From assembly GCA_934141145.1 (NCBI GenBank), contig CAKPCA010000004.1, positions 802-64,801 of the forward strand: a stretch of 64,000 nucleotides of DNA, written 5' to 3'. The notes beneath the pieces are model-generated. The model worked only from the letters and a program-made list of their open reading frames with translations, made no database searches and had not been told where the DNA came from. This stretch comes from an uncultured Bacilli bacterium (GTDB lineage Bacteria > Bacillota_I > Bacilli_A > RF39 > UBA660). A program made the position numbers and the translations under genes. Below, piece after piece: positions 28,494-51,645 of the stretch; within the stretch, counting starts at the first letter, position 1, and each line of letters starts with the position of its first letter.

Positions 28494-29594
28494 TTAATAT
28501 TCATACCAAAGTCCACTAGACTTAAGTTCATTTATTATTTTATTATGTTCTGCATCAGTTTTAGTAAAATATACTTTCATATTTTTATCTGCAACAAAGT
28601 ATAAATAATCATTACTACTATATTCTATAGTTGCAAGTATAGATGTTGAGCTTGGATTACATATTGGACCTACTGGAAGTTTTCCTGCATTTGCGCTACT
28701 TCTTGTGTTATATGGGTTTGGATTATTTATTTCTGATTTATATAAATCTCTTTCTCCAAGTTCTATTTTAAATGCATAGTATGTAGTTACATCACTACCT
28801 AAACTCATTTTTTTATTTAATCTATTTATAAATACACCTGCTATATTTTTTCTATCTTCTAAAGTTATTCCTTCACCCTCTACCATGGATGCAAGAGTAA
28901 GTATTTGATGAACTGACATATTACTTTTTTCTATTTCACTTTTATATTTTGTTAATATAACATTAGTTTGATCTAATAGTTTTTTAAATATATCTTGTAC
29001 ACTAGCATTTACTTTAAATTCATATGTGTCTGGGGCTAAATAACCTTCAAGTGGATAATAAATATTCTTATCTAATATAACATTATCTAAAAACCAATAT
29101 TCATTTATTAAACTATTAATATATTCTTTATCTTCTAACACTTTAAATACATCATCATAACTATTAGAAGTATTTTTATCTATTATTTTAGCAATACCTC
29201 TCATAGTTTTTCCTTCATTAAATGTAATTGTTACTGTTTGATCTTTTACATTACTACCACTTTGTAATATCTTAAATATTTCTTTTAAACTAGAATTTCT
29301 ATCTAGCATATAATTACCTGCTTGAAGACCTTCTATTTTATTTAATTTAATATATAAATCTGCAAAATACTTATTTTTAATAATTTTTTTCTTTTTAAGT
29401 GTTGCAGTAATTTGTCTAATTGTACTACCCTTTTCAATTTCAACCATAACTTTATCTGACTTATTTGATACGGGATTTACATTTTTACAACAAAATACTA
29501 TTCCAATAATCATTATAATAACTATAACTATTGGTAATATGTAAATTACTTTGAACTTTTTGCATTTTGTATTCTTTTTATTCTTCTTTTTCAT
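28494..29594 (-). CDS. mltG: Endolytic murein transglycosylase MltG (YceG-like)
   Basis: It has an N-terminal TM helix, a LysM-like domain and the NPYNTR...GKLPVGPICNPS catalytic block. Confidence 0.85.
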   Translation of the reverse strand: MKKKNKKNTKCKKFKVIYILPIVIVIIMIIGIVFCCKNVNPVSNKSDKVMVEIEKGSTIRQITATLKKKKIIKNKYFADLYIKLNKIEGLQAGNYMLDRNSSLKEIFKILQSGSNVKDQTVTITFNEGKTMRGIAKIIDKNTSNSYDDVFKVLEDKEYINSLINEYWFLDNVILDKNIYYPLEGYLAPDTYEFKVNASVQDIFKKLLDQTNVILTKYKSEIEKSNMSVHQILTLASMVEGEGITLEDRKNIAGVFINRLNKKMSLGSDVTTYYAFKIELGERDLYKSEINNPNPYNTRSSANAGKLPVGPICNPSSTSILATIEYSSNDYLYFVADKNMKVYFTKTDAEHNKIINELKSSGLWYEY

Positions 29595-31349
29595 CTACTT
29601 CTCCTCTAATATAGCCTTAATTCTTCTAACACCAGCAGAACTTGCTTCTTCTTTTTTTATCTTAAAGTGACCAAGTTCACTTGTATTATTAACATGTGGT
29701 CCTCCACATAATTCCTTTGAAACATCTCCAATACTATAAACTGTTACAATGTCAGGATATTTCTCAATAAACATACATTCAGCACCTGATTTAATTGCTT
29801 CTTCTTTACTCATTTCTTTTTTAGTTACAGGTAGACCCTCATCTATCCATTTATTAACTAAATCTTCTGCATTCTTCTTTTCTTCATCTGTTAATTTATG
29901 ATCACAAGAAAAATCAAAACGCATTCTTTCATCAGTTATATTAGATCCTTTTTGATGTACATCTTTATTAATAACTACTTTTAATGCTGCATTAAGAAGA
30001 TGAGTTGCTGTATGATATTTAGTTTCTATTTCACTGTTACCAGCAAGTCCACCTTTAAACTTACCAGCAGATGCTGTTCTAGATAATTCTTGATGTGCTT
30101 TAAATTTTTCATAGAAACCTTTTTCATCTACAGTAAGTCCTCTTTCTTTTGCAAGTTCTAAAGTAAGTTCAATTGGAAAACCATAAGTATCATATAATTT
30201 AAATGCTAAATCTTTGTTTATTTCATTTTCATTTAAATTTTTAACAATTTTTTCAAATTCTCTAAGTCCTTTTTCAAGTGTACGACTAAATTTAATTTTT
30301 TCATTTTTAAGTACTTCCATAACTACATTTTCATTTGTACTTAACTCACTATAATATTTTTTATATTCATCTATTATATTTTTAGCAATTTCACTTTCCC
30401 AGTTACTATTAATATCTATATCTATCATTTTTGCATATCTAATTGCTCTTCTAATTAATCTTCTAAGTATATAACCTTGGTCTGTATTACTTGGTTTAAT
30501 ACCTGCTGGATCACTTGAAATAAATACTGCTGCTTTAATATGATCAGCAATTATTCTAAATGCTTTTTCATTACCATAATAACTTTTACCTGATATTTCT
30601 TCTATCTTCTTTATAGTACCTTTCCATATACTTGATTCATAGTTATCATTAACTCCTTCAAGTACTGCTGTTATTCTTTCGAGTCCCATACCTGTATCAA
30701 CATTTTTCTTAGGAAGTACTACTAAAGTTCCATCTTCTTTTCTTTCATATTGCATAAATACATTATTCCATATTTCAACCCATCTATCATCATCTGGATC
30801 AAATGTTTCTGGAATTTCATCATCACTTCTAAAATAGAATATTTCAGTATCTGTTCCACATGGTCCAACTTCTCCTGCACTCCAGAAATTATCTTCACTA
30901 GTTTTTGCTATTCTTTCTTGTTTTATTCCATGACTTAACCAATAATTTTCACTTTCAATATCTTCTTCTAATACATCATTACCTTTAAATACAGTAACTG
31001 CAAGTCTTTCAATTGGAATATTAAGTACTTTAGTCAAAAATTCAAAACTATATTCTATACTTTCTTTTTTAAAATAATCACCTAAAGACCAGTTACCAAG
31101 CATTTCAAAGAATGTATGATGAGTTACATCTCCAACTTCATCTAAGTCATTTGTTCTAATACATTTTTGATAATCACAAAGTCTTGTTCCATATGGATGA
31201 ACTTCCCCCATTAAATATGGTACAAGTGGCTGCATACCTGCAGTATTAAATAATACTGATGGATCATTTTCTGGTACAACTGGCGCACTAGGTATTTGTT
31301 TATGTCCTTTACTTACAAAAAATTCTATATATTTATCTCTTATATTCAT
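29595..31349 (-). CDS. alaS: Alanine--tRNA ligase, short form (584 aa)
   Basis: The class IIc core is FFVSKGHKQIPSAPVV...DPSVLFNTAGMQP...KCIRTNDLDEVGD..HHTFFEMLGNWSLGDYFK. The editing domain has HTATHLLNAALK and CGGPHV. The protein ends right after the editing domain. Confidence 0.85.
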   Translation of the reverse strand: MNIRDKYIEFFVSKGHKQIPSAPVVPENDPSVLFNTAGMQPLVPYLMGEVHPYGTRLCDYQKCIRTNDLDEVGDVTHHTFFEMLGNWSLGDYFKKESIEYSFEFLTKVLNIPIERLAVTVFKGNDVLEEDIESENYWLSHGIKQERIAKTSEDNFWSAGEVGPCGTDTEIFYFRSDDEIPETFDPDDDRWVEIWNNVFMQYERKEDGTLVVLPKKNVDTGMGLERITAVLEGVNDNYESSIWKGTIKKIEEISGKSYYGNEKAFRIIADHIKAAVFISSDPAGIKPSNTDQGYILRRLIRRAIRYAKMIDIDINSNWESEIAKNIIDEYKKYYSELSTNENVVMEVLKNEKIKFSRTLEKGLREFEKIVKNLNENEINKDLAFKLYDTYGFPIELTLELAKERGLTVDEKGFYEKFKAHQELSRTASAGKFKGGLAGNSEIETKYHTATHLLNAALKVVINKDVHQKGSNITDERMRFDFSCDHKLTDEEKKNAEDLVNKWIDEGLPVTKKEMSKEEAIKSGAECMFIEKYPDIVTVYSIGDVSKELCGGPHVNNTSELGHFKIKKEEASSAGVRRIKAILEEK

Positions 31350-31366: not shown

Positions 31367-32689
31367 TTATAAATTCATTTTTCTTTCTTCTTTATATTTA
31401 TTATAATCATATTTTTCTAGTAATTCTTGTTTTTTTATTCCATATGATTTTTCAAATTGTTTTTGTACAATAAATAATTTTCTATAATTATTCATATCTA
31501 TATCAATTCCTTTATCTTTATAAAATGAATATCTTGCATAACTTAAATTTATACTTTGCATTAATTTTTTTGAATCAATAACTGCAAGTTCATGCATATC
31601 AATAAAATCATAAAATTCTATTTTTTGTTTAATATTTTCTATTGATAAACCATAAATCGCAGGGAAAGCTTTTGTCATCTTGATTACTTCTTCTTTGGTG
31701 TAACCTAATACAATTATATCAGATATTTTTTGCTTCATATTTTCTATTGATAAACTATAAATTGCAGGTGAAGTTTTTGTCATCTTGATTACTTCTTCTT
31801 TGGTATAACCTAAAGCAATCATATCTTCTATTTTTTGTTTAACATTTTCTATTGAATAACCATAAATTGCAGGTAAACTTTTTGTCATCTTGATTACTTC
31901 TTCTTTGGTATAACCTAATGCAATTATATCTTCTATTTTTTGTTTAATATTCTCTATTGAATAACTATAAATTGCAGGTAAAGTTTTTGTCATTTTGATT
32001 ACTTCTTTTTTGGTATAACCTAAAGCAATCATATCTTCTATTTTTTGTTTAATATTTTCTATTGAATAACTATAAATTGCAGGTAAAGTTTTTGTCATCT
32101 TGATTACTTCTTCTTTGGTGTAACCTAATACAATTATATCATCTATTTTTTGCTTCATATTTTCTATTGAATGACTATAAATTGCAGGTGAAGTTTTTGT
32201 CATTTTGATTACTTCTTCTTTACTGTAACCTAATGCAATTATATCATCTATTTTTTGCTTCATATTTTCTATTGAATGACTATAAATTGCAGGTGAAGTT
32301 TTTGTCATCCTGATTACTTCTTCTTTGGTGTATCCTAGGTCAATCATATCTTCTATTTTTTGTTTAATATTTTCTATTGAATAATTATAAATTGAAGGTA
32401 AACTTTTTGTCATTTTAATTACTTCTTTTTTGGTATAACCTAAAGCAATCATATCTTCTATTTTTTGCTTCATATTTTCTATTGATAAACCATAAATTGC
32501 AGGTAAAGTTTTTGTCATTTTTATTACTTCTTCTTTTGTATAACCCATTTTAAGAAGATAATCAAAATTATCTTTTAACTTTTTTATTAAGGTTTCATCC
32601 TTTATACCAATTATTACATGATTATTTCTTATTATTTCATATTCCTCTTCGGTATATCCTAATTTTATAAATTCTTCCTTTAATGTCAT
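31367..32689 (-). CDS. Helical-repeat protein with nine tandem 35-aa mTERF-like motifs
   Basis: The preferred start is the ATG at 32689 behind the RBS AGGTGG. There are nine near-identical units of the form GYTKEEVIKMTKTLPAIYSYSIENIKQKIEDMIAL. The pattern LG.s.EEv..m....P.I...S.EN.k.K.e..i.LG resembles the mTERF motif. Its stop is 17 nt upstream of the alaS start. Confidence 0.55.
   Translation of the reverse strand: MTLKEEFIKLGYTEEEYEIIRNNHVIIGIKDETLIKKLKDNFDYLLKMGYTKEEVIKMTKTLPAIYGLSIENMKQKIEDMIALGYTKKEVIKMTKSLPSIYNYSIENIKQKIEDMIDLGYTKEEVIRMTKTSPAIYSHSIENMKQKIDDIIALGYSKEEVIKMTKTSPAIYSHSIENMKQKIDDIIVLGYTKEEVIKMTKTLPAIYSYSIENIKQKIEDMIALGYTKKEVIKMTKTLPAIYSYSIENIKQKIEDIIALGYTKEEVIKMTKSLPAIYGYSIENVKQKIEDMIALGYTKEEVIKMTKTSPAIYSLSIENMKQKISDIIVLGYTKEEVIKMTKAFPAIYGLSIENIKQKIEFYDFIDMHELAVIDSKKLMQSINLSYARYSFYKDKGIDIDMNNYRKLFIVQKQFEKSYGIKKQELLEKYDYNKYKEERKMNL
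31601..32545 (-). repeat. Nine in-frame tandem copies of a 105-bp coding repeat
   Basis: Direct reading shows a 105-nt periodicity, for example the recurring ttgtcat(c/t)ttgattacttcttctttggt(g/a)taacctaa. Confidence 0.85.
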
Positions 32690-32705
32690 TTTATCCACCT
32701 ACTTT

Positions 32706-33101
32706 TTATATTTCATTAAATATTATCGAGTTTGAGTCTAAATCATCTATTATATCTTCTAATTCTTCGCCACTATCTAATCTACTATTTATATACTTTT
32801 CTATTTCAAATACTTCTAAATTTAATATATATGGATTTGAATCAAACAATATATTTAACATATCAAACCCATATGATTTTAATTTATTTATTAATCTTAA
32901 TATACCATCATTTGTTCTATCCAAATACATTGGATTACTGCTGATAATATTTATTACTTGATTTTCATCACAATTAACTTTTTCTAATATTATTTCTTTT
33001 TCTTTTATTTCCTTTTCACTCATTTCTGATATAGAAGGAACTAATTCTAACATATTTTTTATTGTATTTTCACTTATACCTATTCTATATAATTCTTCCA
33101 T
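32706..33101 (-). CDS. Small divergent mTERF-like repeat protein (about 131 aa)
   Basis: The likely start is MEELYRIGISENTIKNMLELVPSI... at 33101. About three degenerate motifs follow (G.SENTIKNML.L.P.I, NQVINIISSNPMYL, GFDMLNILFDSNPYIL). Confidence 0.4.
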   Translation of the reverse strand: MEELYRIGISENTIKNMLELVPSISEMSEKEIKEKEIILEKVNCDENQVINIISSNPMYLDRTNDGILRLINKLKSYGFDMLNILFDSNPYILNLEVFEIEKYINSRLDSGEELEDIIDDLDSNSIIFNEI

Positions 33102-34545
33102 TTTCTTTTTTCCTTTCTTCTTTATATTTATTATAATCATATTTTTCTAGTAATTCTTGTTTTTTTATTCTATATGATTTTTCAAATTGTTTTTGATTGA
33201 TAAATAATTTTCTATAATTATTCATATCTATATCAATTTCTTTATCTTTATAAAATGAATATCTTGCATAACTTAAATTTACACTTTGCATCAAAATTTT
33301 TGAATCAATAACTGCAAGCTTATGCATATTGATTGAATCATAAAATTCTATCTTTTGTTTAATATTTTCTATTGATAAACTATAAATTGAAGGAAAAGCT
33401 TTGGTCATCTTGATTACTTCTTCTCTAGTGTATCCTAATGCAATTATATCTTCTATCTTTTGTTTAATATTTTCTATTGATAAACTATAAATTGTAGGTA
33501 AGCTTTTTGTCATCTTGATTACTTCTTCTTTGGTGTATCCTAATGCAATCATATCTTCTATCTTTTGTTTAATATTTTCTATTGATAAACTATAAATTGA
33601 AGGTAAAGTTTTTGTCATCTTAATTACTTCTTCTTTGGTGTATCCTAATGCAATCATATCTTCTATCTTTTGTTTAATATTTTCTATTGATAAACGATAA
33701 ATTGCAGATAAAGTTTTTGTCATTTTTATTACTTCTTCTTTTGTATAACCCATTTTAAGAAGATAATCAAAATTATCTTTTAACTTTTTTATTAAGGTTT
33801 CATCCTTTATACCAATTATTACATGATTATTTCTTATTATTTCATATTCTTCTTCAGTATATCCTAATTTTATAAATTCTTCCTTTAATGTCATTTTAGT
33901 TTTTTTCTTCACAATATCTATTATTTTATTTACTACTTCATCAATAGTCATATTACTAGTATCGATATATATTTGATCATCTGTTTTCTTTAGTGCTCCA
34001 ACTTTTTTATGCATATCATTATAATCTCTTTTAGCAATATTATCTCTTATTTCACTTTCATTCATATCAATGCCTTTTTCTTTATTTTGTTGAAGTCTTC
34101 TTTTTACTCTTTCATCTAAAGATGCATCAAGGTAAAATTTAAAGTCAGCATTTGGAAATACTACTGTTGTAATATCTCTACCTTCCATTATTACATTTTT
34201 ACCTTTAGCCATATTTCTTTGAAGAGCTACTAAGTTTTCTCTTACTTTTTCTATGCTTGATACCTCAGATACTATTTTAGTAACATCTTTTTCTCTAATT
34301 CTATCAGTTACTTCTTCTTTATTTAAAAATACTCTAGAGTCTTCTGTTAAATTTATATCAACATTTTTTGATATTTCTATAATTTTATCAGTTTCTTCTA
34401 AGTTTACTCCTTCTTTTAACATTTCAAGTGCAACACATCTATAAGTTGCTCCTGTATCAATATTAACTAAATTTAATTTTTTTGAAACTAAACTTGCGAT
34501 AGTTCCTTTCCCACTTCCAGCAGGTCCATCAATTGCGATTATCAT
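33085..34545 (-). CDS. cmk: Cytidylate kinase fused in frame to four mTERF-like 35-aa repeats and the shared C-terminal domain
   Basis: From the ATG at 34545 (RBS GGAGGTG) it reads MIIAIDGPAGSGKGTIASLVSKKLNLVNIDTGATYRCVAL..., which is Cmk. No stop codon occurs before KKKTK-MTLKEEFIKLGYTEEEYE..., which is nearly nucleotide-identical to the start of 31367..32689. The internal ATG at 33894 has no obvious RBS. Confidence 0.75.
   Translation of the reverse strand: MIIAIDGPAGSGKGTIASLVSKKLNLVNIDTGATYRCVALEMLKEGVNLEETDKIIEISKNVDINLTEDSRVFLNKEEVTDRIREKDVTKIVSEVSSIEKVRENLVALQRNMAKGKNVIMEGRDITTVVFPNADFKFYLDASLDERVKRRLQQNKEKGIDMNESEIRDNIAKRDYNDMHKKVGALKKTDDQIYIDTSNMTIDEVVNKIIDIVKKKTKMTLKEEFIKLGYTEEEYEIIRNNHVIIGIKDETLIKKLKDNFDYLLKMGYTKEEVIKMTKTLSAIYRLSIENIKQKIEDMIALGYTKEEVIKMTKTLPSIYSLSIENIKQKIEDMIALGYTKEEVIKMTKSLPTIYSLSIENIKQKIEDIIALGYTREEVIKMTKAFPSIYSLSIENIKQKIEFYDSINMHKLAVIDSKILMQSVNLSYARYSFYKDKEIDIDMNNYRKLFINQKQFEKSYRIKKQELLEKYDYNKYKEERKKENGRII
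33331..33750 (-). repeat. Four in-frame tandem copies of the same 105-bp coding repeat
   Basis: Same unit as 31601-32545. The flanks 33721-33898 and 32515-32692 differ at only about 2 positions over roughly 175 nt by direct comparison. Confidence 0.85.
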
Positions 34546-34561
34546 AAAACACCTCCATATA

Positions 34562-34780
34562 TAAAAAGGATAGTACATTACCCATTTAAGGAGTGCATAT
34601 GCACGGTACCATCCTTTTATTTACTTAATTATTTTAACGACTATTTAAGCCGGCATAAAGCATCTCCAGTAGTAGCGCTTTCATTAATAATTAATATTAG
34701 TTTTTCACCAATCACTAACTCTCTATAAATAATTATTAATTACTTTCTACTTTCATAGAATTTAAAACTATAAAAAATAC
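34562..34780 (-). promoter_or_regulatory. T-box leader (tRNA-sensing riboswitch) with probable alanine specifier, plus its promoter
   Basis: On the minus strand there is an extended -10 TGTTATAAT (34795-34787). The stem I elements are AGAGAGTTAGTGATTGGTGAAAAAC. A specifier-loop candidate TGAAA-GCG-C has GCG at 34678-34676, and GCU overlaps it at 34676-34674. The T-box sequence is AAAGGATGGTACCGTGC (34600-34620). The terminator pairs AAAGGATGGTAC with GTACTATCCTTT (34617-34565) and is followed by TTTTATAT. The cmk RBS and ATG come next. Confidence 0.7.
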
Positions 34781-34827
34781 AAATATATTATAACAAAAAT
34801 TAAATAATATATCTACATAAAAAGATA

Positions 34828-37298: not shown

Positions 37299-39200
37299 TT
37301 AATTAGTTTTTGGATAAATTTCATAAATATATGAATTTGTATTAGTATAATATTTTGAAAATCTTATTCTAGTAGCATTACTTGGAATTGTAAATTCTTT
37401 TTCTCCGTCAAATTGGTGTTCTGCATATTCATGACTTAATAATTCATCTGCATCATCATAATAATATACAAATAAATTACCTGTACTTGCTTCTGATTTT
37501 CCTCTTACAATAAATTTTTGTCCTTGCATTGATTTATCTACTAATAAATATGATTCACTAACTGCATCTGCATAATCATTATATCTATTCATAGTAATAT
37601 AAGTATTTAAATCATTATCATATACAGAATCTGATATTGCATTTGGAAAATCTGGTGTTACGCTTGTAATATATTCTTTTTCTACGTTAGATACTTTACT
37701 TTTCGCATAAATTGTACTTCCGGCAGCTATATTCTTTATTTCACCATTATATTTTTCCCATTCACCATTATCTATTTTATATTGCTTTAATTTTGCCTCT
37801 GTCGCATAAGAAATTGTTGCATCAAAACTTTTTTTAGTTATTCCATTTTTAGTTAATGTAGGATAATTTTTTACTATTTTTATACTTGAATTATAACTTG
37901 GATAAATTTCATATATATATGCTTCTGTCCAAGTATAGTATTTTGAAAATCTTATTTTTGTAGTATTAATTGGTATAGTACAATCTTTTTCACCATCAAA
38001 TTGTTTTTCTATATCTTCATGGCTTAACAAATTATCATTATTATCATAATAATATACAATTATGTTTCCTGTATTTGACGCAGTTTTGCCTCTTATAGTA
38101 AATTTTTGTCCTTGCATTGATTTATCTACTAATAAATATGGTTCACTAACTGCATCTGCATAATCATTATGTCTATTCATAGTAATATAAGTATTTAAAT
38201 CGTTATCAAAAATTTCATTACCTATAGCATCTTTTGCAACTTCTACACCACTCATATCTTTTTCTGCTATACTTGACTCTCTACCATTAGGTTTTACTGT
38301 CTTTGCATATATTTTACTTCCTGTTATGTTTATTTCTCCTGTATATTCTTTAAATTCTCCATTATCTACTCTATACATTATTTTTGATGCTTTATTTGTT
38401 TCATTACTTAATTTTAAACTTACTGAAACCTCTATACCTTTAGCAGTTAATTTAGGAAATGCACCTGTTAGTGTTATTGTTGGCTCTACTAACTCTTCTT
38501 TATCTATTTTCTTTTCTTCATATGTACTTATTCCTGCTTTTTTACTATTCTTTTCAAGCCATGCACTTACTTTTGAATTTTTTTCTAATCTTAATGTTAT
38601 TTCATTTTTTGTTACTTCTCGAGCATTATCCAAAGTTACCTCTTTATCGCCATCAAACACACTTCCGCTTTCTACTTTAAAATATTTTTTATATCCTTGT
38701 TTCTCTGGATATGTTATTACTAATGTTTTTTCTGTTGCCCATTCATCTGTATTTATTTTAAAATCTACAAATAAATCCATATCTCCACAATCATCCGCAA
38801 GTATACTAGTACTTCCCTCTTGATAACTTATTACATAATTATTTATACATACTTTAGCTGTACCTATTTTCCCTGTACTTGTTACATTTATTGTCCCTGC
38901 ACTTGGTTTATTACCTTTCATTGTTAATAAATCATTTATTTTCTTATATGTTTTACCATTTAATGTTGTTTCTTTGGAAACTTCATATGTTCCTTCTGGA
39001 ATCTTATCTGTATTATTTAAGTCTGCGTTTGCTTGATATAATCTAAATGCATCTACATATAATTTTACACTTTGTTCTGATGCACTTCTTCTTGATTTTT
39101 CTATTACATCTAATATTTTTGGTACCGCTATTAATGTTATTATTGCGAGCAAGACTATTACTGCTAAAAGCTCTATTAATGTAAATCCTTTTTTCTTCAT
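37299..39200 (-). CDS. Large (633 aa) modular protein with a type IV prepilin N-terminus and duplicated C-terminal beta-sandwich (discoidin-like) modules
   Basis: The N-terminus MKKKG/FTLIELLAVIVLLAIITLIAVPKILDVIEKS is nearly identical to that of 14109..16259. Two copies of ...DNDLNTYITMNR.NDYADAVSE.YLLVDKSMQGQKF..RGK...TGN..VYYYD....LLSHE....QFDGEK..TIP.N.T.IRFSKYYT....YIYEIYP are separated by a YKIDNGEWEKYNGEI Ig-like module. Confidence 0.7.
   Translation of the reverse strand: MKKKGFTLIELLAVIVLLAIITLIAVPKILDVIEKSRRSASEQSVKLYVDAFRLYQANADLNNTDKIPEGTYEVSKETTLNGKTYKKINDLLTMKGNKPSAGTINVTSTGKIGTAKVCINNYVISYQEGSTSILADDCGDMDLFVDFKINTDEWATEKTLVITYPEKQGYKKYFKVESGSVFDGDKEVTLDNAREVTKNEITLRLEKNSKVSAWLEKNSKKAGISTYEEKKIDKEELVEPTITLTGAFPKLTAKGIEVSVSLKLSNETNKASKIMYRVDNGEFKEYTGEINITGSKIYAKTVKPNGRESSIAEKDMSGVEVAKDAIGNEIFDNDLNTYITMNRHNDYADAVSEPYLLVDKSMQGQKFTIRGKTASNTGNIIVYYYDNNDNLLSHEDIEKQFDGEKDCTIPINTTKIRFSKYYTWTEAYIYEIYPSYNSSIKIVKNYPTLTKNGITKKSFDATISYATEAKLKQYKIDNGEWEKYNGEIKNIAAGSTIYAKSKVSNVEKEYITSVTPDFPNAISDSVYDNDLNTYITMNRYNDYADAVSESYLLVDKSMQGQKFIVRGKSEASTGNLFVYYYDDADELLSHEYAEHQFDGEKEFTIPSNATRIRFSKYYTNTNSYIYEIYPKTN
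37308..38228 (-). repeat. Internal duplication of a roughly 330-bp coding module (copies at about 37308-37640 and 37896-38228)
   Basis: Direct comparison of the DNA and protein shows the two modules are about 80% identical, with a 588-bp offset. Confidence 0.75.
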
Positions 39201-42677: not shown

Positions 42678-45224
42678 TTATTTTAATTTTTCAAGTATAA
42701 TTGCAAGTTCTTTCTTTTCGTTTTCTAATTTTATTTTTTCTTCTTCAACTAAATTCTTTGGAGCATTATTAACATATCCTGGATTAGATAGTAATTTTTC
42801 TCTTCTTGCAATATTACTTTCTAAAGTCATTTTTTCTTTTTCTAAAGCATCTTTTTGTTTTTTATTTTCTTCTTCAGATACTTCATAATAATAAGTTAAT
42901 TTAACATTTAATTCATTTGTATTTGACTCTATTGTTACTTTACTATATTCACTATCTTGTACTTCATTATTTAATTTAAGCATATTTTTAATAATTTTTT
43001 CAGCACTTAAATTATTACATTCTAAACTATATTTAAATTCTTTTGGAATATTATTTTCTTTCTTTGTAATTCTTGATTTTGTAATAAAGTTTCTTATTTC
43101 TTCCATTAATTTTATAGTATCATCAAAGTTTAATTCTTCATTTACTTTTGGATAAGAACTAATCATAATACCTTCTGTTTCTTTTACTGGAAGCATACTA
43201 TATATTTCTTCAGTTACAAAAGGCATAAATGGATGAAGTAATTTTAAGATATTTGTTAATACATATAAAAGTGTACTTTTTGTTGATGAATTGTCCATAT
43301 TAAATTTAGAAAATTCTATATATCCATCACAGAAATCATCCCAAATAAAGTTGTATAGTTCTGTTCCTACATTTTGGAATTCATATTTATCCATATTTTT
43401 TCTAACTTCACTTATTGTTTTATTAAGTTTTGTTAATATCCATTTATCACTAAATGTAAGTGTAGAAAAATCATATCCTTTTACATTTTCTATATTCATT
43501 AATGTAAATCTTGATGCATTCCATATTTTATTTATAAAGTTCCAAGTAGATTTCATTTTTTCTTCATCAAATCTTAAATCTTGACCTGGCGCTGAATTAG
43601 TTGTTAAGAAATATCTAAGTGCATCGCATCCATATTCTTCTATCATATCCATAGGATCTATACCATTACCTAAACTTTTACTCATTTTTCTTCCATCTTT
43701 ATCACGAATAAGTCCATGTATTATGCAATCTTTAAATGGAACTTCTTTAGTAAATTCTAGTGATTGGAACATCATTCTAGATACCCAGAAGAATATAATA
43801 TCATAACCTGTTACAAGTGCATTTGTTGGATAATATCTATTAAATAAATCAGTATTATCTGGCCAGCCTAATGTACTAAATGGCCATAATGCGCTACTAA
43901 ACCAAGTATCAAGTACATCTTCATCTTGAATCCATCCTTCACCTGGTGATTCAACTTGTACTTTAACTTCATTATCTTTATACCATGCTGGTACTCTAAT
44001 ACCCCACCATAATTGTCTTGATATACACCAGTCATGACAATCATTCATCCAGTTTTCAAGTACTTTTTCGCATCTTGCTGGATAAAAGTTAACTTTATTA
44101 TCTGTTTTTTGATTTTCTAATAAATTATGTGCTAAATCACTCATCTTAACAAACCATTGTTCTGATAAATAAGGTTCTACCATTACACCTGTTCTTTCAG
44201 AATGTCCAACACTATGAGTTATTTTTTCAATATTAATAAGTAAATCTTTTTCTTTTAATTCTTCTATTAATTTTTCTCTTGCTTCAAATCTATCAAGCCC
44301 TTTATAATTTAATGCATTTTCATTCATATGAGCAGTTTCATCCATAACAACTATTCTCTCTAGGTTATGTCTATTACCTACTTCAAAGTCATTTGGATCA
44401 TGTGCAGGAGTAATTTTAACAACACCTGTACCTTTTTCCATATCAGCGTGTTCATCACCTATGATAGGTATTAATTTACCAACTATAGGTAAAATAACAT
44501 TTTTACCTATTAATTTATTATATCTTTCATCTTTAGGATTAACTGCAACTGCTGTATCACCAAATAATGTTTCTGGTCTTGTAGTTGCTACATCAAGATA
44601 ATCATTTGTTCCTTCAATATAATATTTTAAATGATAGAATGCTCCTTCTACATCTTTATATATAACTTCTTCATTAGAAAGAGCTGTTCTTGCTTCTGGA
44701 TCCCAGTTAATTATTTTTTTACCTCTATAAATAAGTCCATCGTTATACATTTTTATAAATGCATAATTTACTGCTTTTTGTGATACTTCATCTAAGGTAA
44801 ATCTTTCTTTTGAATAATCTAAACTAATACCCATTTTAGACCATTGTTTTCTTATATTATCAGCATATTCATCTTTCCATTTCCATGCTTCTTTTAAGAA
44901 GTTTTCTCTACCTAATTCATATTTATTTATTCCTTCTTTTTTTAATTTAGCAACTACTTTTGCTTCTGTTGCAATTGCGGCATGGTCCATACCTGGAAGC
45001 CATAATACATCATATCCATCCATTCTTTTATACCTACATATTATATCTTGAATTGATACATCTTGTGCATGCCCAATATGTAACTTACCTGTTATATTAG
45101 GTGGTGGAAGTACCATTGAAAATGGTGTTTTTGTTTTATCACCTGACATAAAGTAATTATTATTAAGCCAGATCTCATATTTTCCTTCTTCTACTTTTTT
45201 ATGATCATATTTAATTTCTAACAT
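42678..45224 (-). CDS. valS: Valine--tRNA ligase
   Basis: It has the HIGH motif ([14 protein letters not shown]), the KMSKS motif, a CP1 editing domain and a C-terminal coiled coil. Confidence 0.95.
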
Positions 45225-45936
45225 ATTTATCTATCCTCTCATCCATATATTTATTTACTATATCAATTACTTCATCAAATTTTTCTTTATGATCTAAAAT
45301 ATTATAAAATATATTTAAATTTGTTTTAAATTCTTCTAAGCACTCATCATAATTTATATCAAAGGCCCAAGCAAAAGCTGTAACGATTTCATCATTTTTT
45401 GTTTTTTCATTAGTTCTTAAAATTTCTGAATGATTTCTTACTGAATTTATAATTGACTCACTTATTTCACTAATATCACTTCTTAATTTATTACTTATTC
45501 CATAAATATGCATTATATCTATTTTATCAATATCTCTAATAAGTTTTGCATGTTCCATAATTCTTTCATCTGTTATATCTTCAATTTTAAATTTATTATG
45601 ATTTTTTATTGCTAATTTTATTAATTCATAGTCATCCTTATTATCCCAAAATTTTTCGATCAATCCATCATCAAAAAGTATTTTTACTCCCAAATTTGCA
45701 TGATCAATAGTTTTTTTATCTTCAAAACTATCATATTGTTTTACTTGTTCAAATCTACCAATATCATGAAGTAATCCTATTAGGCTGGCAAGCTTTATAT
45801 CATAATCACTGAAACCTAGTTTTTTTGAATATTTTTGACTTAACTCCATAACTCTAATAGAATGATCATATTTTGATTTAATTTTAATATTATTTAAATC
45901 ATAATTACTTACATATTTTCTAAATTCTTCTATCAT
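45211..45936 (-). CDS. HD-domain phosphohydrolase family protein, first gene of the T-box/valS operon
   Basis: The preferred start is the ATG at 45936 behind GGAGGT. It carries the [12 protein letters not shown] motif. Its 3' end overlaps the valS start by 14 nt. Confidence 0.7.
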
Positions 45937-45939: not shown

Positions 45940-46178
45940 TACCTCCAAAAAAGAAAAATATCCATGAATGTAAGGACGATTTTTTCGCGGTACCACCTTA
46001 CTTCATAGATATTTCTATGCTCTTTAAATATTTAACGCATATCATACGTAACATTTTAATTATATTTCAAATGTTAGGTTCATAAGCTACCTTCAAATAT
46101 TATATTTATTAGTTTTCACCAAGCACTAACTCTCTTTTAAAATATTAATATTTTACTCCTCTTAATCAAAACCTTTAT
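45940..46178 (-). promoter_or_regulatory. T-box leader with valine (GUA) specifier
   Basis: On the minus strand the stem I elements are AGAGAGTTAGTGCTTGGTGAAAAC. The specifier-loop candidate TGAAG-GTA-G has GUA at 46090-46088. The T-box sequence is AAGGTGGTACCGCG (46000-45986). A terminator-like hairpin AAAAAATCGTCC...GGATATTTTT is followed by CTTTTTT, then the RBS. Confidence 0.7.
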
Positions 46179-46516: not shown

Positions 46517-46891
46517 TTATTTTGTATACTGATTATTCCTTATAAATTCCCTTAAGAGCTTAGTAATTGCTCTTTTTTCTATTCTTGATACATAACTTCT
46601 AGATATATTAAGTTCTTTTGCAATTTCTTTTTGTGTTAATTCATCATAACCATTAAACCCATATCTTTTATATATAATTAGTTTTTCTCTATCTGATAAT
46701 ACATTTAAGTATTTACCTAATAATTCAATATTATTTTTTAAATGTATATCTTCTGCAAAATCTGGTTTTGGAGTCTTTAATATATCCATAAATGTTATTT
46801 CATTACCATCTTTATCATAACCTACAGATTCATCAATACTAATATTTTTACTATTTTTTTTATCACTTCTAAAGTGCATCAATATTTCATT
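46517..46891 (-). CDS. sigK: 3' segment of the split sigK gene (spoIIIC-equivalent; sigma regions 3-4)
   Basis: From codon N27 of ORF 46517..46969 it reads NEILMHFRSDKKNSKNISIDESVGYDKDGNEITFMDILK...LSDREKLIIYKRYGF....LTQKEIAKELNISRSYVSRIEKRAITKL. The 26 codons upstream (MMMIATYK...) lie inside the element and are not sigma-like. Confidence 0.85.
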   Translation of the reverse strand, partial: NEILMHFRSDKKNSKNISIDESVGYDKDGNEITFMDILKTPKPDFAEDIHLKNNIELLGKYLNVLSDREKLIIYKRYGFNGYDELTQKEIAKELNISRSYVSRIEKRAITKLLREFIRNNQYTK

Positions 46892-48647
46892 CGCCACTAT
46901 CACTTGAAAGAACGATTTTGCCGTTATGCGTTGCTGATAATCCGTCTTGTACGTTGCTATCATCATCAAATAGTTGTGGTTTAGTAGTTATTGTGTGATT
47001 TCTACTACCGATTAAATCCATATATATTTTTTTGCCATCGGTTTCCATATTACCTACAAATAATTTGATTAGATTACGTTTGCTTATTATATCTAATTCA
47101 TCAAACCTACAAATATATTTAGTTAGTATTTCAAAAACAACTTTGGCTGTTTCTTGGTCGTTAATGATTTGATTTGGTTGTTCTTGCTTTAATTTTTGTA
47201 TATTGGTTGCTATTTCATTGTTTTTACGTTTTAATTCTTTCATTTGTGCTTGTACTACATCAAATATTTCATCATCAACAAGTGCTAAACGATTAGCAAG
47301 ATTTTTTATTTCATTTTCATTTTTACTATAATTACGTTCTAATACTTGTAATTCATCATTTTTATTTTTGCTATCATAATCGTTGTCGGTTGCGATTTCT
47401 TCTATTGCTTTGTAAAATTCGCTTGTTGGATTTGCTAATTCTTTCATACCACGCATAACTAACTCATCGGCTTCATTTCCGTTTATGTTTTTACAAGAAC
47501 ATTTTTCGCCTTTACTTTTCATTTTTAAATCGCATATATAATCAAACCTTAAATCGCCGTTAGCCGTTTTATTTTGTTTTAGTTTTGCTCTCATAAGTGA
47601 ATGACAATGACTACAACGAAGAACACCAACTAATATTGCGTTATTCTTAATTGGTTTACGATAGTTTTTATCTTCATTTGCTTTTAATATTTCTTGTACT
47701 TGTACCCAATCTTTACCACTTATAATGCCGTTGTGTTGTCCAATAGCAACAATCCAATCTTGTAAATCTTTATATTTTACACGTCCCGTTTTAGTTTTTT
47801 CGGTTTTACAATAGCCAATTATTCCGTGTTTTCCGTTAAATTCTTCTTTATCGTTATATACTTCAACGTCATTTTCTAAAAAGTAATTAAGAACGTCTTT
47901 GTCAGCAACGGCATATACGGGATTTCTTAAAATGTTTTTAACACCCCAACGGGAAAAATCACAATTTCTTTTTGTCTTAAAATTATTTTGTATTAAAAAA
48001 CTTTCAACTTGTGTTTGTGATTTATATTCCAAAAATTTTTGAAATATTGTTTTAATAATTGCTATTTCATCATCAATAGGTACAAGTTTATATAAATTGA
48101 CTTTCTTTCCGTTTATGTTTTCTTTTTCCATCTTTTCACTCATAAATCCAAGTGGAACATTACCACCAAGCCAACGTCCCGTTTTTGCTAATTTATACAT
48201 ATTATCTCTTACACGTTCGGCGATTGTATCACGTTCAAGTTGTGCGAATGTAATTGCAATAAATAACATCGCTTTACCCATAGGGGTAGTCGTATCAAAC
48301 CTTTCACTTACTGAAATAAAGTTTACATCGTGTTCTTGCCAATCTTCATATAAATTAGCAAAGTCTAATACATTACGGGAAACACGGTCAAGACGATAAC
48401 AAATAATAGTATCAAACTCATCATTTTTAATTGCTTTCATCATTTCTTGGAATTGTGGTCTATCGGTATTTGCCCCCGTATAACCCTCATCGTTATATAC
48501 AATTATATCATCATCGGTTAAAGTTGTATCAATATACGTTTTTAAATAATGCTTACAAGTATCAATTTGGTTTTCTATACTTTCGCCTTTACCCGTAAAC
48601 TTTGATTTACGCGAATATATCGCTTTTTTTCTTTTTCTTTCTTCCAT
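46887..48647 (-). CDS. spoIVCA: Large serine recombinase (SpoIVCA/TnpX-like)
   Basis: The N-terminal resolvase domain reads KAIYSRKSKFTGKGESIENQ...CYRLDRVSRNVLDF (catalytic Ser in YSRKS). It also has a recombinase domain, a zinc-ribbon (CSHC...C..K...KC.C) and a coiled-coil. Its TGA stop (46889-46887) overlaps the CATT crossover core. Confidence 0.85.
   Translation of the reverse strand: MEERKRKKAIYSRKSKFTGKGESIENQIDTCKHYLKTYIDTTLTDDDIIVYNDEGYTGANTDRPQFQEMMKAIKNDEFDTIICYRLDRVSRNVLDFANLYEDWQEHDVNFISVSERFDTTTPMGKAMLFIAITFAQLERDTIAERVRDNMYKLAKTGRWLGGNVPLGFMSEKMEKENINGKKVNLYKLVPIDDEIAIIKTIFQKFLEYKSQTQVESFLIQNNFKTKRNCDFSRWGVKNILRNPVYAVADKDVLNYFLENDVEVYNDKEEFNGKHGIIGYCKTEKTKTGRVKYKDLQDWIVAIGQHNGIISGKDWVQVQEILKANEDKNYRKPIKNNAILVGVLRCSHCHSLMRAKLKQNKTANGDLRFDYICDLKMKSKGEKCSCKNINGNEADELVMRGMKELANPTSEFYKAIEEIATDNDYDSKNKNDELQVLERNYSKNENEIKNLANRLALVDDEIFDVVQAQMKELKRKNNEIATNIQKLKQEQPNQIINDQETAKVVFEILTKYICRFDELDIISKRNLIKLFVGNMETDGKKIYMDLIGSRNHTITTKPQLFDDDSNVQDGLSATHNGKIVLSSDSGE
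46888..46913. repeat. Left junction of the sigK-intervening element (shared core CATT plus the element-side inverted-repeat arm)
   Basis: The core CATT lies at 46888-46891. The arm CGCCACTATCACTTGAAAGAAC (46892-46913) is the imperfect inverted repeat of 54662-54681. Confidence 0.7.
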
Positions 48648-48765
48648 AAAAAGTCGTCCTTTCTTTTATGTGATATATAATATATTATATCATAAATTAT
48701 ACAATAAATATAGTATTTTCTATGATTTTGTGCTAAAATATTATATCAATGAAAGGACGTGTATT

Positions 48766-49713
48766 ATGCAAAATTGTTTAAAGAAAAACTTTTCACATCA
48801 TATTTTATTTGATAATAAGTATGCTGAACAATCATATATTGCGTATCTTTCAAAAGGAAAAAGAAAATACATAATGAATTCAAGCGATTATGTAGAAAGA
48901 TTTATTGTTTTTACTATTGATTTTATTTTTAGAATTAACAATGCAATTTGTAGACGTGGTTTAGTAGAAAATAACAAAGAAGATATAAGAAAATTGTATG
49001 ATACACCAAAAGATGTTGAAAAATATTCTTATTATACTAAAATGACGGTCAATGACGTTTATAACGATATAAAAAGATATAAACTTACAAATGAATATGA
49101 ACAAGAAATATTTGATATGTTAGAAAAGGTTGTAAACTTAAAAGATAAACTATTTACGAATTATGATGATTTTAAAAGTGGTATATATGAATTAGTAAAA
49201 ACGATTGATGACAAACATTATACTTGGATTGTTGGGGAAAATATTATATATAATAGGTCTATTCGCGATAACGAAAGTAAAAAATATTATTGTGCCGTTA
49301 TAGGTCAAAAAGGTTATAAAAGATTTAAAACGATTTATTATAATAATGTCTATTTAGAAACGCGTATAAAAAAGATTACGTTTGAACAAGTATGCGATTT
49401 ACTTATTGTTATTGCTGATACATACAACGAATTAATTATAAAAGAATATGACAATGCAAGTGATATCATTAACGATTATATAAAAAATAATGCCGATATG
49501 TTTAATTGTAAAGATATATATTATGCTAAAATATTTATGGATTTAAAGAAAATATCTTTATTATTACAAACTGATAAACAAAAAGATGTTGTAAAACTGA
49601 TGAAAGATATTATACAAAGTGAAAATAAAAAATATAAAAATGATTTTCTTTTATATGAAAATATACCGATTGATGAAAATGCTATTGAGCAAGGTCAATA
49701 TATTGAATTATAA
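48766..49713 (+). CDS. Hypothetical protein (315 aa), element cargo, divergent from the recombinase gene
   Basis: The preferred start is the ATG at 48766 behind GAAAGGA. No motif recognised. Confidence 0.45.
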   Translation: MQNCLKKNFSHHILFDNKYAEQSYIAYLSKGKRKYIMNSSDYVERFIVFTIDFIFRINNAICRRGLVENNKEDIRKLYDTPKDVEKYSYYTKMTVNDVYNDIKRYKLTNEYEQEIFDMLEKVVNLKDKLFTNYDDFKSGIYELVKTIDDKHYTWIVGENIIYNRSIRDNESKKYYCAVIGQKGYKRFKTIYYNNVYLETRIKKITFEQVCDLLIVIADTYNELIIKEYDNASDIINDYIKNNADMFNCKDIYYAKIFMDLKKISLLLQTDKQKDVVKLMKDIIQSENKKYKNDFLLYENIPIDENAIEQGQYIEL

Positions 49714-49863
49714 GGAAATAATATTAAAAAGTGCATTTTTTACAATAACCTACCAATTAGGTTAAATGCATTTTTTTTATTGTTTTCTTTTTTTCTTTTG
49801 CTAATATAGTTCTTGCAAAGAAAAAACGCGTTTCATATTTGCAAGATGGGGGGTGGTCAATAA

Positions 49864-51634: not shown

Positions 51635-51645
51635 CGGGAATTATA

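What the first reader, a model, noticed from the sequence alone, without database searches (positions are those of the whole stretch)
31367..34545. Cluster of three bacterial mTERF-like helical-repeat genes, one fused to cytidylate kinase
Two paralogous genes carry nine and four nearly perfect 35-aa units of the form GYTKEEVIKMTKTLPAIYSYSIENIKQKIEDMIAL.

The spacing and residue pattern (LG.s.EEv..i....P.I...S.EN.k.K.e....LG) match the mTERF motif of eukaryotic organellar nucleic-acid-binding proteins. They fit this better than TPR, PPR or Sel1 repeats. A third, divergent small gene between them has about three degenerate copies.

The four-repeat copy has no stop codon between a complete Cmk domain and the repeat protein (KKKTK-MTLKEEF...), and there is no RBS at the internal ATG. 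This predicts a Cmk-mTERF-like fusion protein.

As far as I know, mTERF-family proteins are essentially eukaryotic. A tandem bacterial expansion fused to a nucleotide kinase and embedded in an aminoacyl-tRNA synthetase operon is not a described system.
Basis: partly seen in the sequence, partly recalled or inferred. Interest (0 to 1): 0.8.

Follow-up and report, generated by a model that had tools for sequence, protein, structure and literature searches.

The report
Bacterial mTERF-like repeat gene module
Three neighbouring genes in a low-GC gut bacterium really do encode mTERF-type helical-repeat proteins, but this bacterial family ("pTERF") was described in 2024; what looks new is its layout: a fusion to cytidylate kinase that depends on one base, a conserved small acidic partner protein, and a position inside a tRNA-sensing alanyl-tRNA synthetase operon.

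Summary
On the minus strand lie cmk fused in frame to a 4-unit repeat protein (33085-34545), a 131-aa gene (32706-33101) and a 9-unit repeat protein (31367-32689).

All three match Pfam mTERF PF02536 (E 3e-24, 4.8e-9, 1.9e-64). AlphaFold models (pLDDT about 92) have human MTERF1, MTERF3 and MTERF4 as their best PDB matches.

"Not described" is out of date. A 2024 paper (PMC11417379) defined pTERF: 35-aa tandem-repeat mTERF-like proteins from Bacillota MAGs, two of which bind specific dsDNA at nanomolar Kd.

I found these points, which that paper does not discuss:
- An acidic ~131-aa mTERF-fold partner adjoins a large pTERF gene in 48 of 50 cases.
- Hypervariable unit positions 13, 14, 16, 19 and 20 flank a conserved Pro15.
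- An Ala-specific T-box leader drives cmk-pTERF-small-pTERF-alaS. Phe and Asp T-box leaders precede pTERF clusters in other MAGs.
- The module is missing from one relative, where Cmk is fused to AlaRS instead.

The Cmk fusion rests on one missing G. All 10 unfused junctions recovered keep the G and a TAA stop. A sister lineage has a separate in-frame fusion.

Verdict: a new variant of a known kind. In vivo function is unknown.

The parts
34787..34815 (-). Promoter-like site (TAGATA-17-TATAAT with a TG before the -10) just upstream of the leader
   Evidence: Consensus scan. Such sites are no commoner in this region than in shuffles (67 against 62), so this is only a candidate.
34586..34765 (-). 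T-box leader with probable specifier GCU (Ala), the T-box sequence GGAUGGUACCGUG, and a terminator hairpin plus U-run before cmk
   Evidence: Rfam RF00230 at 74.2 bits, E 2.1e-16, below the gathering score of 93. Orthologous leaders occur in L068, L025 and L060. I read the specifier by eye; it is consistently GCU followed by a purine in four loci.
33895..34545 (-). Cytidylate kinase domain (residues 1-217 of the 486-aa fusion)
   Evidence: Pfam PF02224 E 1.8e-71, full-length match. NCBIfam TIGR00017 cmk equivalog at 232.6 bits against a cut-off of 135.55.
33892..33915 (-). Fusion junction GTGAAGAAAAAAACTAAAATG. It has one G fewer than the relatives' AAGGAAAAAAACTAAAATG, so the TAA is out of frame.
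33085..33894 (-). pTERF moiety of the fusion: 48-aa N-cap, four 35-aa units, about 80-aa conserved C-terminal domain
   Evidence: Pfam mTERF E 3e-24. TRF 105 bp x 3.8 at 33346-33741. Unit parsing.
32706..33101 (-). Small acidic mTERF-fold protein (131 aa, pI 4.2). Its start overlaps the end of the fusion ORF by 17 nt.
   Evidence: Pfam mTERF E 4.8e-9. AF2 pLDDT 92.5. Foldseek: MTERF3 TMq 0.74, MTERF1 TMq 0.80. 517 homologues, nearly all 131 aa. pI.
31367..32689 (-). Large pTERF (440 aa): N-cap, nine 35-aa units (repeat DNA 31616-32545), C-terminal domain
   Evidence: Pfam mTERF E 1.9e-64. TRF 105 bp x 8.9. AF2 pLDDT 92.8. Foldseek top hit MTERF1-DNA complexes, E about 1e-8, TMt 0.65-0.69.
29595..31349 (-). 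alaS (short form, 584 aa), 17 nt downstream of the large pTERF. This is the gene the T-box presumably evolved to control.
   Evidence: Pfam tRNA-synt_2c E 2.5e-143 plus tRNA_SAD; no C-terminal DHHA1/C-Ala domain. Intergenic sequence.
28494..29594 (-). mltG/yceG, abutting alaS (last gene of the conserved block)
   Evidence: Pfam YceG E 1.8e-71. The same order is seen in L002, L025 and L069.

Best explanation
This is a three-gene pTERF module, that is, prokaryotic mTERF-like tandem-repeat proteins. It sits between cmk and alaS in an operon led by an alanine-specific T-box riboswitch.

Shown here:
- The two large proteins are alpha-solenoids of 35-aa three-helix units, with the fold and sequence signature of mitochondrial MTERF1, MTERF3 and MTERF4.
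- They are mildly basic.
- Their units are nearly identical except at a patch of positions (13, 14, 16, 19, 20) around a conserved proline.
- The small protein is a conserved, strongly acidic, three-unit mTERF-fold protein that almost always sits next to a large one.

Inferred:
- The large proteins bind nucleic acid sequence-specifically, most likely dsDNA as shown in vitro for pTERF1 and pTERF2, and read it through the hypervariable patch.
- The small protein is a shared partner or modulator of the large ones. The 17-nt overlap of its start with the fusion ORF is compatible with translational coupling.
- All three genes are transcribed with alaS when tRNA-Ala is uncharged.
- The Cmk fusion arose from a one-base deletion at a tight cmk/pTERF gene junction. 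It is most likely driven by gene adjacency, not by a catalytic coupling.
- The module evolves fast, through repeat-number changes, gene conversion and gene gain or loss. It is dispensable at this locus.
For: Fold and family:
- Pfam PF02536: E 1.9e-64, 4.8e-9 and 3e-24.
- PDB phmmer: MTERF1 at E 2e-9.
- AF2 pLDDT 92.8 and 92.5, with three helices per 35 aa.
- Foldseek: MTERF1-DNA at E about 1e-8 and TMt up to 0.69, then MTERF3 and MTERF4. The small protein gives TMq 0.74-0.80.

Known family: PMC11417379 describes pTERF, with a 35-aa period, 3-11 units, and Bacillota MAG origin. pTERF1 binds ACTNNNAGTC with Kd 1.87 nM, and pTERF2 binds a different motif.

Hypervariable patch: 470 units from 156 proteins show the highest entropy at position 13 (3.54 bits), with 16, 14, 19 and 20 also high. 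These five are also the most variable positions within single proteins. G1, Y2, P15, K28 and L35 are conserved at 93-96%.

Partner:
- 48 of 50 small genes adjoin a large one.
- Median pI is 4.3 for small proteins and 8.7 for large ones.
- The small family is narrow and of fixed length.

Operon:
- T-box at E 2e-16 upstream, with no terminator-like site on the operon strand.
- A 17-nt gap separates the large pTERF from alaS.
- The same layout occurs in L025, L068+L002 and L060.

Fusion origin.

Fast evolution:
- One 90%-identity cluster has lengths 240, 275, 310, 345 and 380 aa.
- The window's two paralogues share 142/144 nt in the N-cap, against 125-126/144 to the closest CAG:433 N-cap (the cmk-adjacent gene).
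- The module is absent in L069 and L070, which are 89-91% identical in the flanking DNA.
- Arrays reach 10 paralogues (L049).
Against: - Nothing here tests nucleic-acid binding, the ligand type (DNA or RNA), or any large-small interaction.
- I could not compare sequences directly with pTERF1 (MBQ3414883.1), because Table S11 of the paper is not held.
- The pTERF1 motif is not enriched in the window: 3 matches against 3.7 expected.
- The T-box scores below Rfam's gathering threshold.
- Genomic contexts elsewhere are heterogeneous (between gyrB and gyrA, next to polA, uvrB, thrS, or SpoU methylase/rimM/trmD), so no single cellular role follows from context.
Confidence: 0.7

Rival explanations
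1. The Cmk-pTERF fusion is a selected bifunctional protein. The NMP-kinase domain would be functionally coupled to the repeat domain, for example by sensing nucleotides or acting at the bound nucleic acid.
For: - Two lineages have in-frame fusions with different junctions: KKKTK-MTLKEEF here and EDVSI-VTLKEEF in L001 and L025.
- A distant relative (L060) has two P-loop NMP-kinase-like genes (DNMK, AAA_17/18) directly upstream of its pTERF pair in an Ala T-box operon.
Against: - All 10 unfused junctions recovered keep a TAA stop.
- Only one fused cluster appears among the best 120 hits listed.
- In L069 and L070 the same Cmk is fused to AlaRS instead, with no pTERF module.
- NCBIfam lists Cmk fusions with PanC, AroA and Der, so Cmk fuses readily with whatever gene is next to it.
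Confidence: 0.12
2. The fusion in this window is a sequencing or assembly error: one base lost next to an A7 homopolymer. In reality cmk and the pTERF gene are separate, as in CAG:433.
For: - The fused and unfused states differ by a single G beside an A7 run.
- The window's junction was found in none of 9 related metagenome contigs nor in CAG:433.
- The missing G also removes the AGGA ribosome-binding-like site that relatives have before the ATG.
Against: - The lost base is the G, not one of the A's.
- The window is a different species-level lineage, about 91% nt identity across the T-box leader and cmk, so absence of its junction elsewhere is weak evidence.
- An independent fusion in L001 and L025, seen in two separate assemblies, shows that the fused state is viable.
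Confidence: 0.18
3. The pTERF proteins are RNA-binding factors of the translation apparatus (tRNA, rRNA or T-box leader RNA) and not DNA binders.
For: - pTERF clusters sit directly behind T-box leaders of three specificities: Ala (window, L068, L025, L060), Phe (L006, L045, L046, L048, L052, L054) and Asp (L055, L059, L064).
- They also sit next to SpoU rRNA methylase, rimM and trmD.
- MTERF4 was among the structural matches, in mitoribosome assembly complexes.
Against: - pTERF1 and pTERF2 bind dsDNA sequence-specifically at nanomolar Kd.
- The best structural matches are MTERF1-DNA complexes.
- Other contexts concern DNA metabolism (gyrB/gyrA, polA, uvrB).
- In this organism the Val T-box operon also carries an unrelated extra gene (an HD-domain protein) before valS, so extra cargo in T-box operons is not specific to pTERF.
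Confidence: 0.2
4. The module is a conflict or selfish element, such as a defence system or mobile cassette. This would explain its rapid diversification and presence/absence between close relatives.
For: - Repeat-number polymorphism, paralogue arrays, gene conversion and loss in L069/L070.
- Insertion into varied essential operons.
Against: - There are no credible PADLOC or PHROG matches, only repeat-inflated scores with no significant stretch.
- tblastn finds no match in 50,697 phage records.
- No integrase or transposase lies next to the module in the window or the loci examined.
Confidence: 0.08

Closest known systems
pTERF family (prokaryotic mTERF-like tandem-repeat DNA-binding proteins; NAR 2024, PMC11417379)
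   Same: - 35-aa tandem units, nearly identical within a protein. The window's proteins have 4 and 9 units, inside the reported range of 3-11.
- Pfam/SMART mTERF motifs are annotated in the repeats.
- Three helices per unit in AlphaFold models.
- Origin in gut or rumen Bacillota MAGs. A homologue found here, L003 = MBQ3475117.1, comes from the same RGIG MAG set and accession block as pTERF1, MBQ3414883.1.
   Different: - The paper does not mention genomic context, a Cmk fusion, the ~131-aa acidic partner, T-box or aaRS operons, or hypervariable positions.
- Direct sequence identity to pTERF1 or pTERF2 could not be checked.
- DNA binding of the window's proteins is untested.
Eukaryotic mTERF family (human MTERF1-4, plant mTERFs; Pfam PF02536)
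   Same: - Significant profile and pairwise similarity.
- The same superhelical three-helix-repeat fold, with TM up to 0.69 against DNA-bound MTERF1.
- The C-terminal domain also aligns with the C-terminal part of MTERF1.
   Different: - These are bacterial, operon-encoded proteins with no targeting peptide.
- Their units are strictly tandem and near-identical, not degenerate and interspersed.
- They have repeat-number polymorphism and a separate small partner gene.
- Their function (termination, roadblock or RNA binding) has not been demonstrated.
TALE-type programmable repeat DNA binders (TALE, and the STAR proteins of PMC11417379)
   Same: - Near-identical tandem units of about 33-35 aa, with variation concentrated at a few adjacent positions.
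- Rapid repeat shuffling.
- TALE structures appear as weaker Foldseek matches (4hpz E 3e-4, TM about 0.3).
   Different: - The unit fold differs (three helices against two) and the TM-scores are low.
- There is no evidence for a one-unit-one-base code.
- The proteins are not secreted effectors. They are encoded in housekeeping operons.
Cytidylate kinase fusion proteins (PanC-Cmk, AroA-Cmk, Cmk-Der; NCBIfam NF010004, NF008816, NF007071)
   Same: A complete Cmk domain is joined to the product of the neighbouring gene.
   Different: - The partner here is an mTERF-like repeat protein. Among the listed hits this pairing occurs in only one other protein cluster.
- In a close relative the partner is AlaRS.
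T-box-regulated aminoacyl-tRNA synthetase operons of Firmicutes (Rfam RF00230)
   Same: The leader has stem I motifs, a specifier loop, the T-box sequence and a terminator, and it lies upstream of an operon ending in the cognate aaRS.
   Different: Three or four unrelated genes (cmk and the pTERF module) lie between the leader and alaS. The score is below Rfam's gathering threshold because the middle of the model, the stem II region, is largely missing.

Membership tests
mTERF (Pfam PF02536) | Profile match above the curated gathering score | tested here: met
   218, 36 and 86 bits against a cut-off of 23.1 for the 9-unit, small and fusion proteins.
mTERF (Pfam PF02536) | Superhelical solenoid of about 30-35-aa units, each made of two alpha-helices plus a short helix | tested here: met
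   AF2 pLDDT 92.8 and 92.5 with three helices per 35 aa. Foldseek top hits are MTERF1, MTERF3 and MTERF4, probability 1.00, TMt 0.57-0.69. Handedness was not measured directly; it is implied by the superposition and by the match to the designed left-handed toroid 4yxx.
mTERF (Pfam PF02536) | Nuclear-encoded eukaryotic protein acting in mitochondria or chloroplasts | tested here: not met
   The genes lie in a bacterial operon with a T-box leader, ribosome-binding sites, cmk, alaS and mltG. Homologues come from gut Bacilli/Clostridia MAGs.
mTERF (Pfam PF02536) | Binds nucleic acid (dsDNA or RNA) | not testable with these tools
   Needs EMSA, SELEX or ChIP.
pTERF (PMC11417379) | Prokaryotic (Bacillota) protein with tandem, near-identical 35-aa units, 3-11 per protein | tested here: met
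   TRF period 105 bp, 8.9 and 3.8 copies at 89-93%. Units listed. pTERF1 is in the paper's period-35 class, TR_35_C32_2.
pTERF (PMC11417379) | mTERF motifs annotated in the repeat region and a three-helix unit in the AlphaFold model | tested here: met
pTERF (PMC11417379) | Sequence homology to pTERF1 (MBQ3414883.1) or pTERF2 | not tested
   The sequences and Table S11 are not held. The only link is indirect: a homologue, MBQ3475117.1, comes from the same MAG dataset.
pTERF (PMC11417379) | Sequence-specific dsDNA binding at nanomolar affinity | not testable with these tools
   The pTERF1 motif ACTNNNAGTC is not enriched in the window (3 against 3.7 expected). This says nothing about these paralogues.
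Cytidylate kinase (TIGR00017 / PF02224) | Full-length match above the equivalog cut-off, with an intact P-loop | tested here: met
   TIGR00017 at 232.6 bits against 135.55. PF02224 covers profile positions 1-210 of 211. GPAGSGKGT is present.
T-box leader (RF00230) | Covariance-model match at the gathering score | tested here: inconclusive
   74.2 bits against a gathering score of 93, but E 2.1e-16 over the full model span with the stem II region deleted. Orthologous leaders score 75.6-90.8 bits (L025, L060); the Asp leader of L055 scores 93.
T-box leader (RF00230) | Specifier codon matching the downstream aaRS, the T-box sequence, and a terminator | tested here: met
   GCU followed by a purine in the specifier loop of the window, L025, L060 and L068. 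GGAUGGUACCGUG followed by a hairpin and a U-run. alaS lies downstream. I read the specifier by eye.

The most novel reading that the evidence does not exclude
Small-genome, AT-rich gut Bacilli may use a two-part, programmable mTERF system. Variable basic pTERF readers would work with one conserved acidic mTERF-fold subunit, as sequence-specific roadblocks or regulators of transcription or replication. Their expression would be wired to tRNA charging through T-box leaders. This would be a bacterial counterpart, and possibly the evolutionary source, of the organellar mTERF machinery.
Probability: 0.15. Interest if true: 0.85.

Novelty: new variant of a known kind. Interest (0 to 1): 0.55.

Why it matters
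mTERF proteins are central to gene expression in mitochondria and chloroplasts. Their origin is unknown, and bacterial relatives were first reported only in 2024, with no biological context.

This locus and its relatives supply that context:
- a conserved large/small gene pair;
- a candidate specificity patch in the repeat unit;
- co-transcription with aminoacyl-tRNA synthetases under T-box control;
- natural fused, unfused and absent states among close relatives.

These give concrete experiments for finding what bacterial mTERFs do. They also offer sequence-diverse natural variants for engineering programmable DNA binders.

The Cmk fusion itself is probably a by-product of gene adjacency and is of minor importance.

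Tried and rejected
- Rfam at gathering threshold missed the leader upstream of cmk. The E-value mode found it.
- PADLOC and PHROGs gave only repeat-inflated whole-protein scores with no significant stretch, for example a 'Csx1' hit at 32 bits. I judged these spurious.
- tblastn against 50,697 phage records found no match.
- A direct link to pTERF1 failed. Table S11 of the paper is truncated in the held copy. Exact look-ups of seven of the eight ORFs I submitted from rumen-MAG loci were not in the collection, probably because start codons differ.
- The pTERF1 motif ACTNNNAGTC is not enriched in the window.
- The window has no tRNA genes that could be candidate targets.
- Searches for Cmk-like or L060-type kinases next to other pTERF clusters found none beyond the window's own clade and L060.
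- The NCBI taxonomy look-up for CAG:433 failed on the name format.
- My first junction script used an ATG offset wrong by one base, so its translations are invalid. Only the DNA strings are used.
- One search used a wrong coordinate for the internal ATG. One search corrects it.
- I considered eukaryotic contamination and rejected it, because the genes are flanked by bacterial signals and are syntenic in dozens of MAGs.

Full report
1. WHAT IS IN THE SEQUENCE

The window has about 23% GC. The minus strand of 28.5-34.8 kb carries a tightly packed gene row:
- a candidate promoter at 34815-34787;
- a T-box leader at 34765-34586;
- cmk fused in frame to a repeat protein, 34545-33085, 486 aa;
- a 131-aa gene, 33101-32706, whose start overlaps the fusion's end by 17 nt;
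- a 440-aa repeat protein, 32689-31367;
- alaS, 17 nt further on, 31349-29595;
- mltG/yceG, 29594-28494.

Tandem Repeats Finder reports a 105-bp period x 8.9 copies (89% matches) and x 3.8 copies (93%). Parsed at protein level, these are nine and four 35-aa units of the type GYTKEEVIKMTKTLPAIYSYSIENIKQKIEDMIAL. They lie between a 48-aa N-terminal cap and an ~80-aa conserved C-terminal domain.

2. WHAT THE PROTEINS ARE

All three proteins match Pfam mTERF PF02536 above the gathering score: E 1.9e-64, 4.8e-9 and 3e-24. The many other Pfam "hits" (UBA, RuvA_C and so on) have no significant individual stretch. They are repeat-inflated noise.

phmmer against PDB sequences finds human MTERF1 at E 2e-9 over about 300 residues, and MTERF3 at 1e-6.

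AlphaFold models are confident: pLDDT 92.8 for the 440-aa protein and 92.5 for the small one. Both show three helices per unit.

Foldseek against the PDB ranks DNA-bound MTERF1 first (E about 1e-8, TMt 0.65-0.69), then MTERF3 and MTERF4. The small protein superposes on MTERF3 and MTERF1 with TMq 0.74-0.80 and rmsd 2.2-3.3 Å.

The N-terminal 217 residues of the fusion are a complete cytidylate kinase (PF02224 E 1.8e-71; TIGR00017 at 232.6 bits against a cut-off of 135.55).

3. IT IS NOT UNDESCRIBED

A full-text search found "Systematic discovery of DNA-binding tandem repeat proteins" (NAR 2024, PMC11417379). That paper names pTERF, for "prokaryotic mTERF-like protein". According to it:
- pTERF proteins have 35-aa tandem repeats and 3-11 units, and come from Bacillota MAGs of gut and rumen;
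- pTERF1 (MBQ3414883.1) binds ACTNNNAGTC with Kd 1.87 nM;
- pTERF2 binds another motif.

The window's proteins fit every descriptive criterion. I could not compare sequences directly, because Table S11 is not held. One homologue I recovered (L003, MBQ3475117.1) comes from the same MAG collection. The paper does not mention operons, cytidylate kinase, T-boxes, synthetases or genomic context.

4. DISTRIBUTION AND ANATOMY OF THE FAMILY

The 440-aa protein has 235 relatives at E<=1e-5, almost all from metagenomes. A scan of one genome per GTDB species gave 67 loci, all from gut, rumen or caecum MAGs labelled Bacilli, Clostridia, Erysipelotrichaceae or "Mycoplasma". The closest is Clostridium sp. 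CAG:433.

My ORF and BLAST map of these loci shows a recurrent module: one or more large pTERF genes plus one ~131-aa gene. Of 50 small genes, 48 directly adjoin a large one. Arrays reach 10 consecutive large paralogues (L049).

The small family is narrow:
- 517 hits, nearly all of exactly 131 aa;
- 274 clusters at 50% identity among 1.84 billion representatives;
- uniformly acidic, with median pI 4.3, whereas large pTERFs are mildly basic, with median pI 8.7.

Across 470 units from 156 proteins, G1, Y2, P15, K28 and L35 are conserved at 93-96%. Entropy is highest at position 13, and positions 16, 14, 19 and 20 are also high. These five positions are also the most variable within single proteins. 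This patch at the end of helix 1 and in the short helix 2 is the obvious candidate for ligand specificity. That is an inference.

5. OPERON CONTEXT

Rfam in E-value mode finds a T-box leader immediately upstream of cmk (74.2 bits, E 2e-16, below the gathering score because the stem II region is missing). I read the specifier as GCU (Ala). It is consistent across the orthologous leaders of L025, L060 and L068. No terminator-like site lies on the operon strand. cmk, the pTERF genes and alaS are therefore probably co-transcribed in response to uncharged tRNA-Ala. This is inferred.

T-box leaders also sit directly in front of pTERF clusters in two other settings:
- clusters that precede pheS/pheT (L006, L045, L046, L048, L052, L054; specifier UUC);
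- a third group (L055, L059, L064; specifier GAC, Asp).

At least 13 of 68 places have this arrangement, representing three or four independent contexts.

The link is not universal. Other modules lie between gyrB and gyrA (L026), or next to polA, uvrB, thrS, or SpoU methylase/rimM/trmD. In this window the Val T-box (45969-46178) also carries an unrelated HD-domain gene before valS. The T-box link is therefore suggestive and not proven.

6. THE FUSION

In CAG:433 the junction reads AAGGAAAAAAACTAAAATG. There cmk stops at TAA, and the pTERF ATG follows one base later. The window reads AAGAAAAAAACTAAAATG. The loss of one G puts cmk in frame with the pTERF ATG, and also removes the AGGA that could serve as a ribosome-binding site.

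A metagenome scan for the junction returned 9 independent related contigs. All are of the unfused type.

A sister lineage (L001, L025; Cmk 85% identical) has its own in-frame fusion, with junction EDVSI-VTLKEEF and the ancestral GTG retained. Among the best 120 hits listed, this is the only cluster that combines PF02224 and PF02536.

In another relative (L069, L070; 89-91% nt identity in the flanks) the whole 2.5-kb pTERF module is absent, and Cmk is fused directly to AlaRS as an 801-aa protein.

In this clade Cmk thus fuses readily to whatever lies downstream of it. NCBIfam also lists Cmk fusions with PanC, AroA and Der. I therefore read the fusion as driven by gene adjacency. A single-base sequencing error cannot be excluded.

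7. DYNAMICS

- One 90%-identity protein cluster contains lengths of 240, 275, 310, 345 and 380 aa, that is, steps of one unit.
- The window's two large paralogues are 142/144 nt identical over the N-cap. They share only 125-126/144 with the closest CAG:433 N-cap (the cmk-adjacent gene), and CAG:433's own paralogues share 117/144. This indicates gene conversion or a very recent duplication.
- Gene content at this locus differs among four congeneric lineages: fusion + small + large (window); cmk | large + small + large (CAG:433); fusion + small (L025); nothing (L069).

8. MECHANISM (BEST ESTIMATE)

Shown here:
- the mTERF fold and the tandem architecture;
- the hypervariable patch;
- the basic large / acidic small pairing;
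- the T-box operon position;
- the one-base origin of the fusion.

Inferred from PMC11417379 and from MTERF1 structures: the large proteins wrap nucleic acid, most likely dsDNA, and read the sequence through the variable patch.

Speculative: the small acidic protein is a shared partner, cap or antagonist, and the system acts as a roadblock or regulator.

No defence or phage signal was found.

9. VERDICT

The mTERF call is correct. The claim of novelty is only partly correct. The proteins belong to the recently described pTERF kind. The Cmk fusion, the conserved small partner and the embedding in T-box/aaRS operons are undescribed variations. The fusion itself is fragile evidence. Interest is moderate.

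Noticed in passing
window 29595-31349 (-): AlaRS has only 584 aa: tRNA-synt_2c matches profile positions 1-436 of 552, tRNA_SAD is present, and there is no C-terminal DHHA1/C-Ala domain. Orthologues in L002, L025 and L060 are 586-591 aa, so the short form is a trait of the lineage.
   Followed up: partly
L069 6001-8406 and L070 5676-8081: An 801-aa Cmk-AlaRS fusion protein (junction IVKE-GVN-MNIRDKY) occurs in a close relative that lacks the pTERF module. It was seen in two metagenome scaffolds.
   Followed up: partly
window 45969-46178 (-), with ORFs 45211-45936 and 42678-45224: A second T-box leader that passes Rfam's gathering score (135 bits) precedes an HD-domain protein and then valS. 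T-box operons in this organism carry extra cargo genes.
   Followed up: partly
L026 3098-10519: A pTERF-small-pTERF module is inserted between gyrB and gyrA.
   Followed up: no
L049 145-11367 and L051 4252-8441 (same MAG, RGIG8542): There are ten consecutive large pTERF paralogues on one contig, and a small gene plus three more large genes on another. That makes at least 14 mTERF-like genes in one MAG.
   Followed up: no
L060 5050-10429: An Ala T-box is followed by an AAA_15/21 ATPase, a DNMK-type dNMP kinase, an AAA_17/18 kinase, a small pTERF, a large pTERF and alaS. This is a second, distant case of P-loop kinases next to a pTERF pair.
   Followed up: partly
L014 652-1197 and 12 other loci (L007, L008, L018-L020, L022, L023, L028, L031, L033, L040, L044): A lysine-rich protein of about 150-180 aa with no Pfam match recurs next to pTERF modules in 13 loci.
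   Followed up: no
L067 6784-9045 (CP091739.1, a 1.53-Mb MAG chromosome): Only short mTERF-like ORF fragments (61-96 aa) are present. This may be a decayed pTERF array.
   Followed up: no
window 37299-39200 (-): A 633-aa protein has a type IV pilin-like N-methylation motif and two long internal repeats (…DNDLNTYITMNR.NDYADAVSE.YLLVDKSMQGQKF…).
   Followed up: no
window 46887-48647 (-) and about 48000-54000: A large serine recombinase (Resolvase + Recombinase + Zn ribbon) lies next to a small HTH/sigma-like ORF. Beyond it, GC skew changes sign for about 6 kb. This may be an integrated element.
   Followed up: no
one search hits P0265-P0279 and P0272/P0274/P0281: Related Bacilli encode other Cmk fusions: Cmk plus a second P-loop kinase domain (about 407 aa), and Cmk plus a PF01553 acyltransferase (431 aa).
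   Followed up: no
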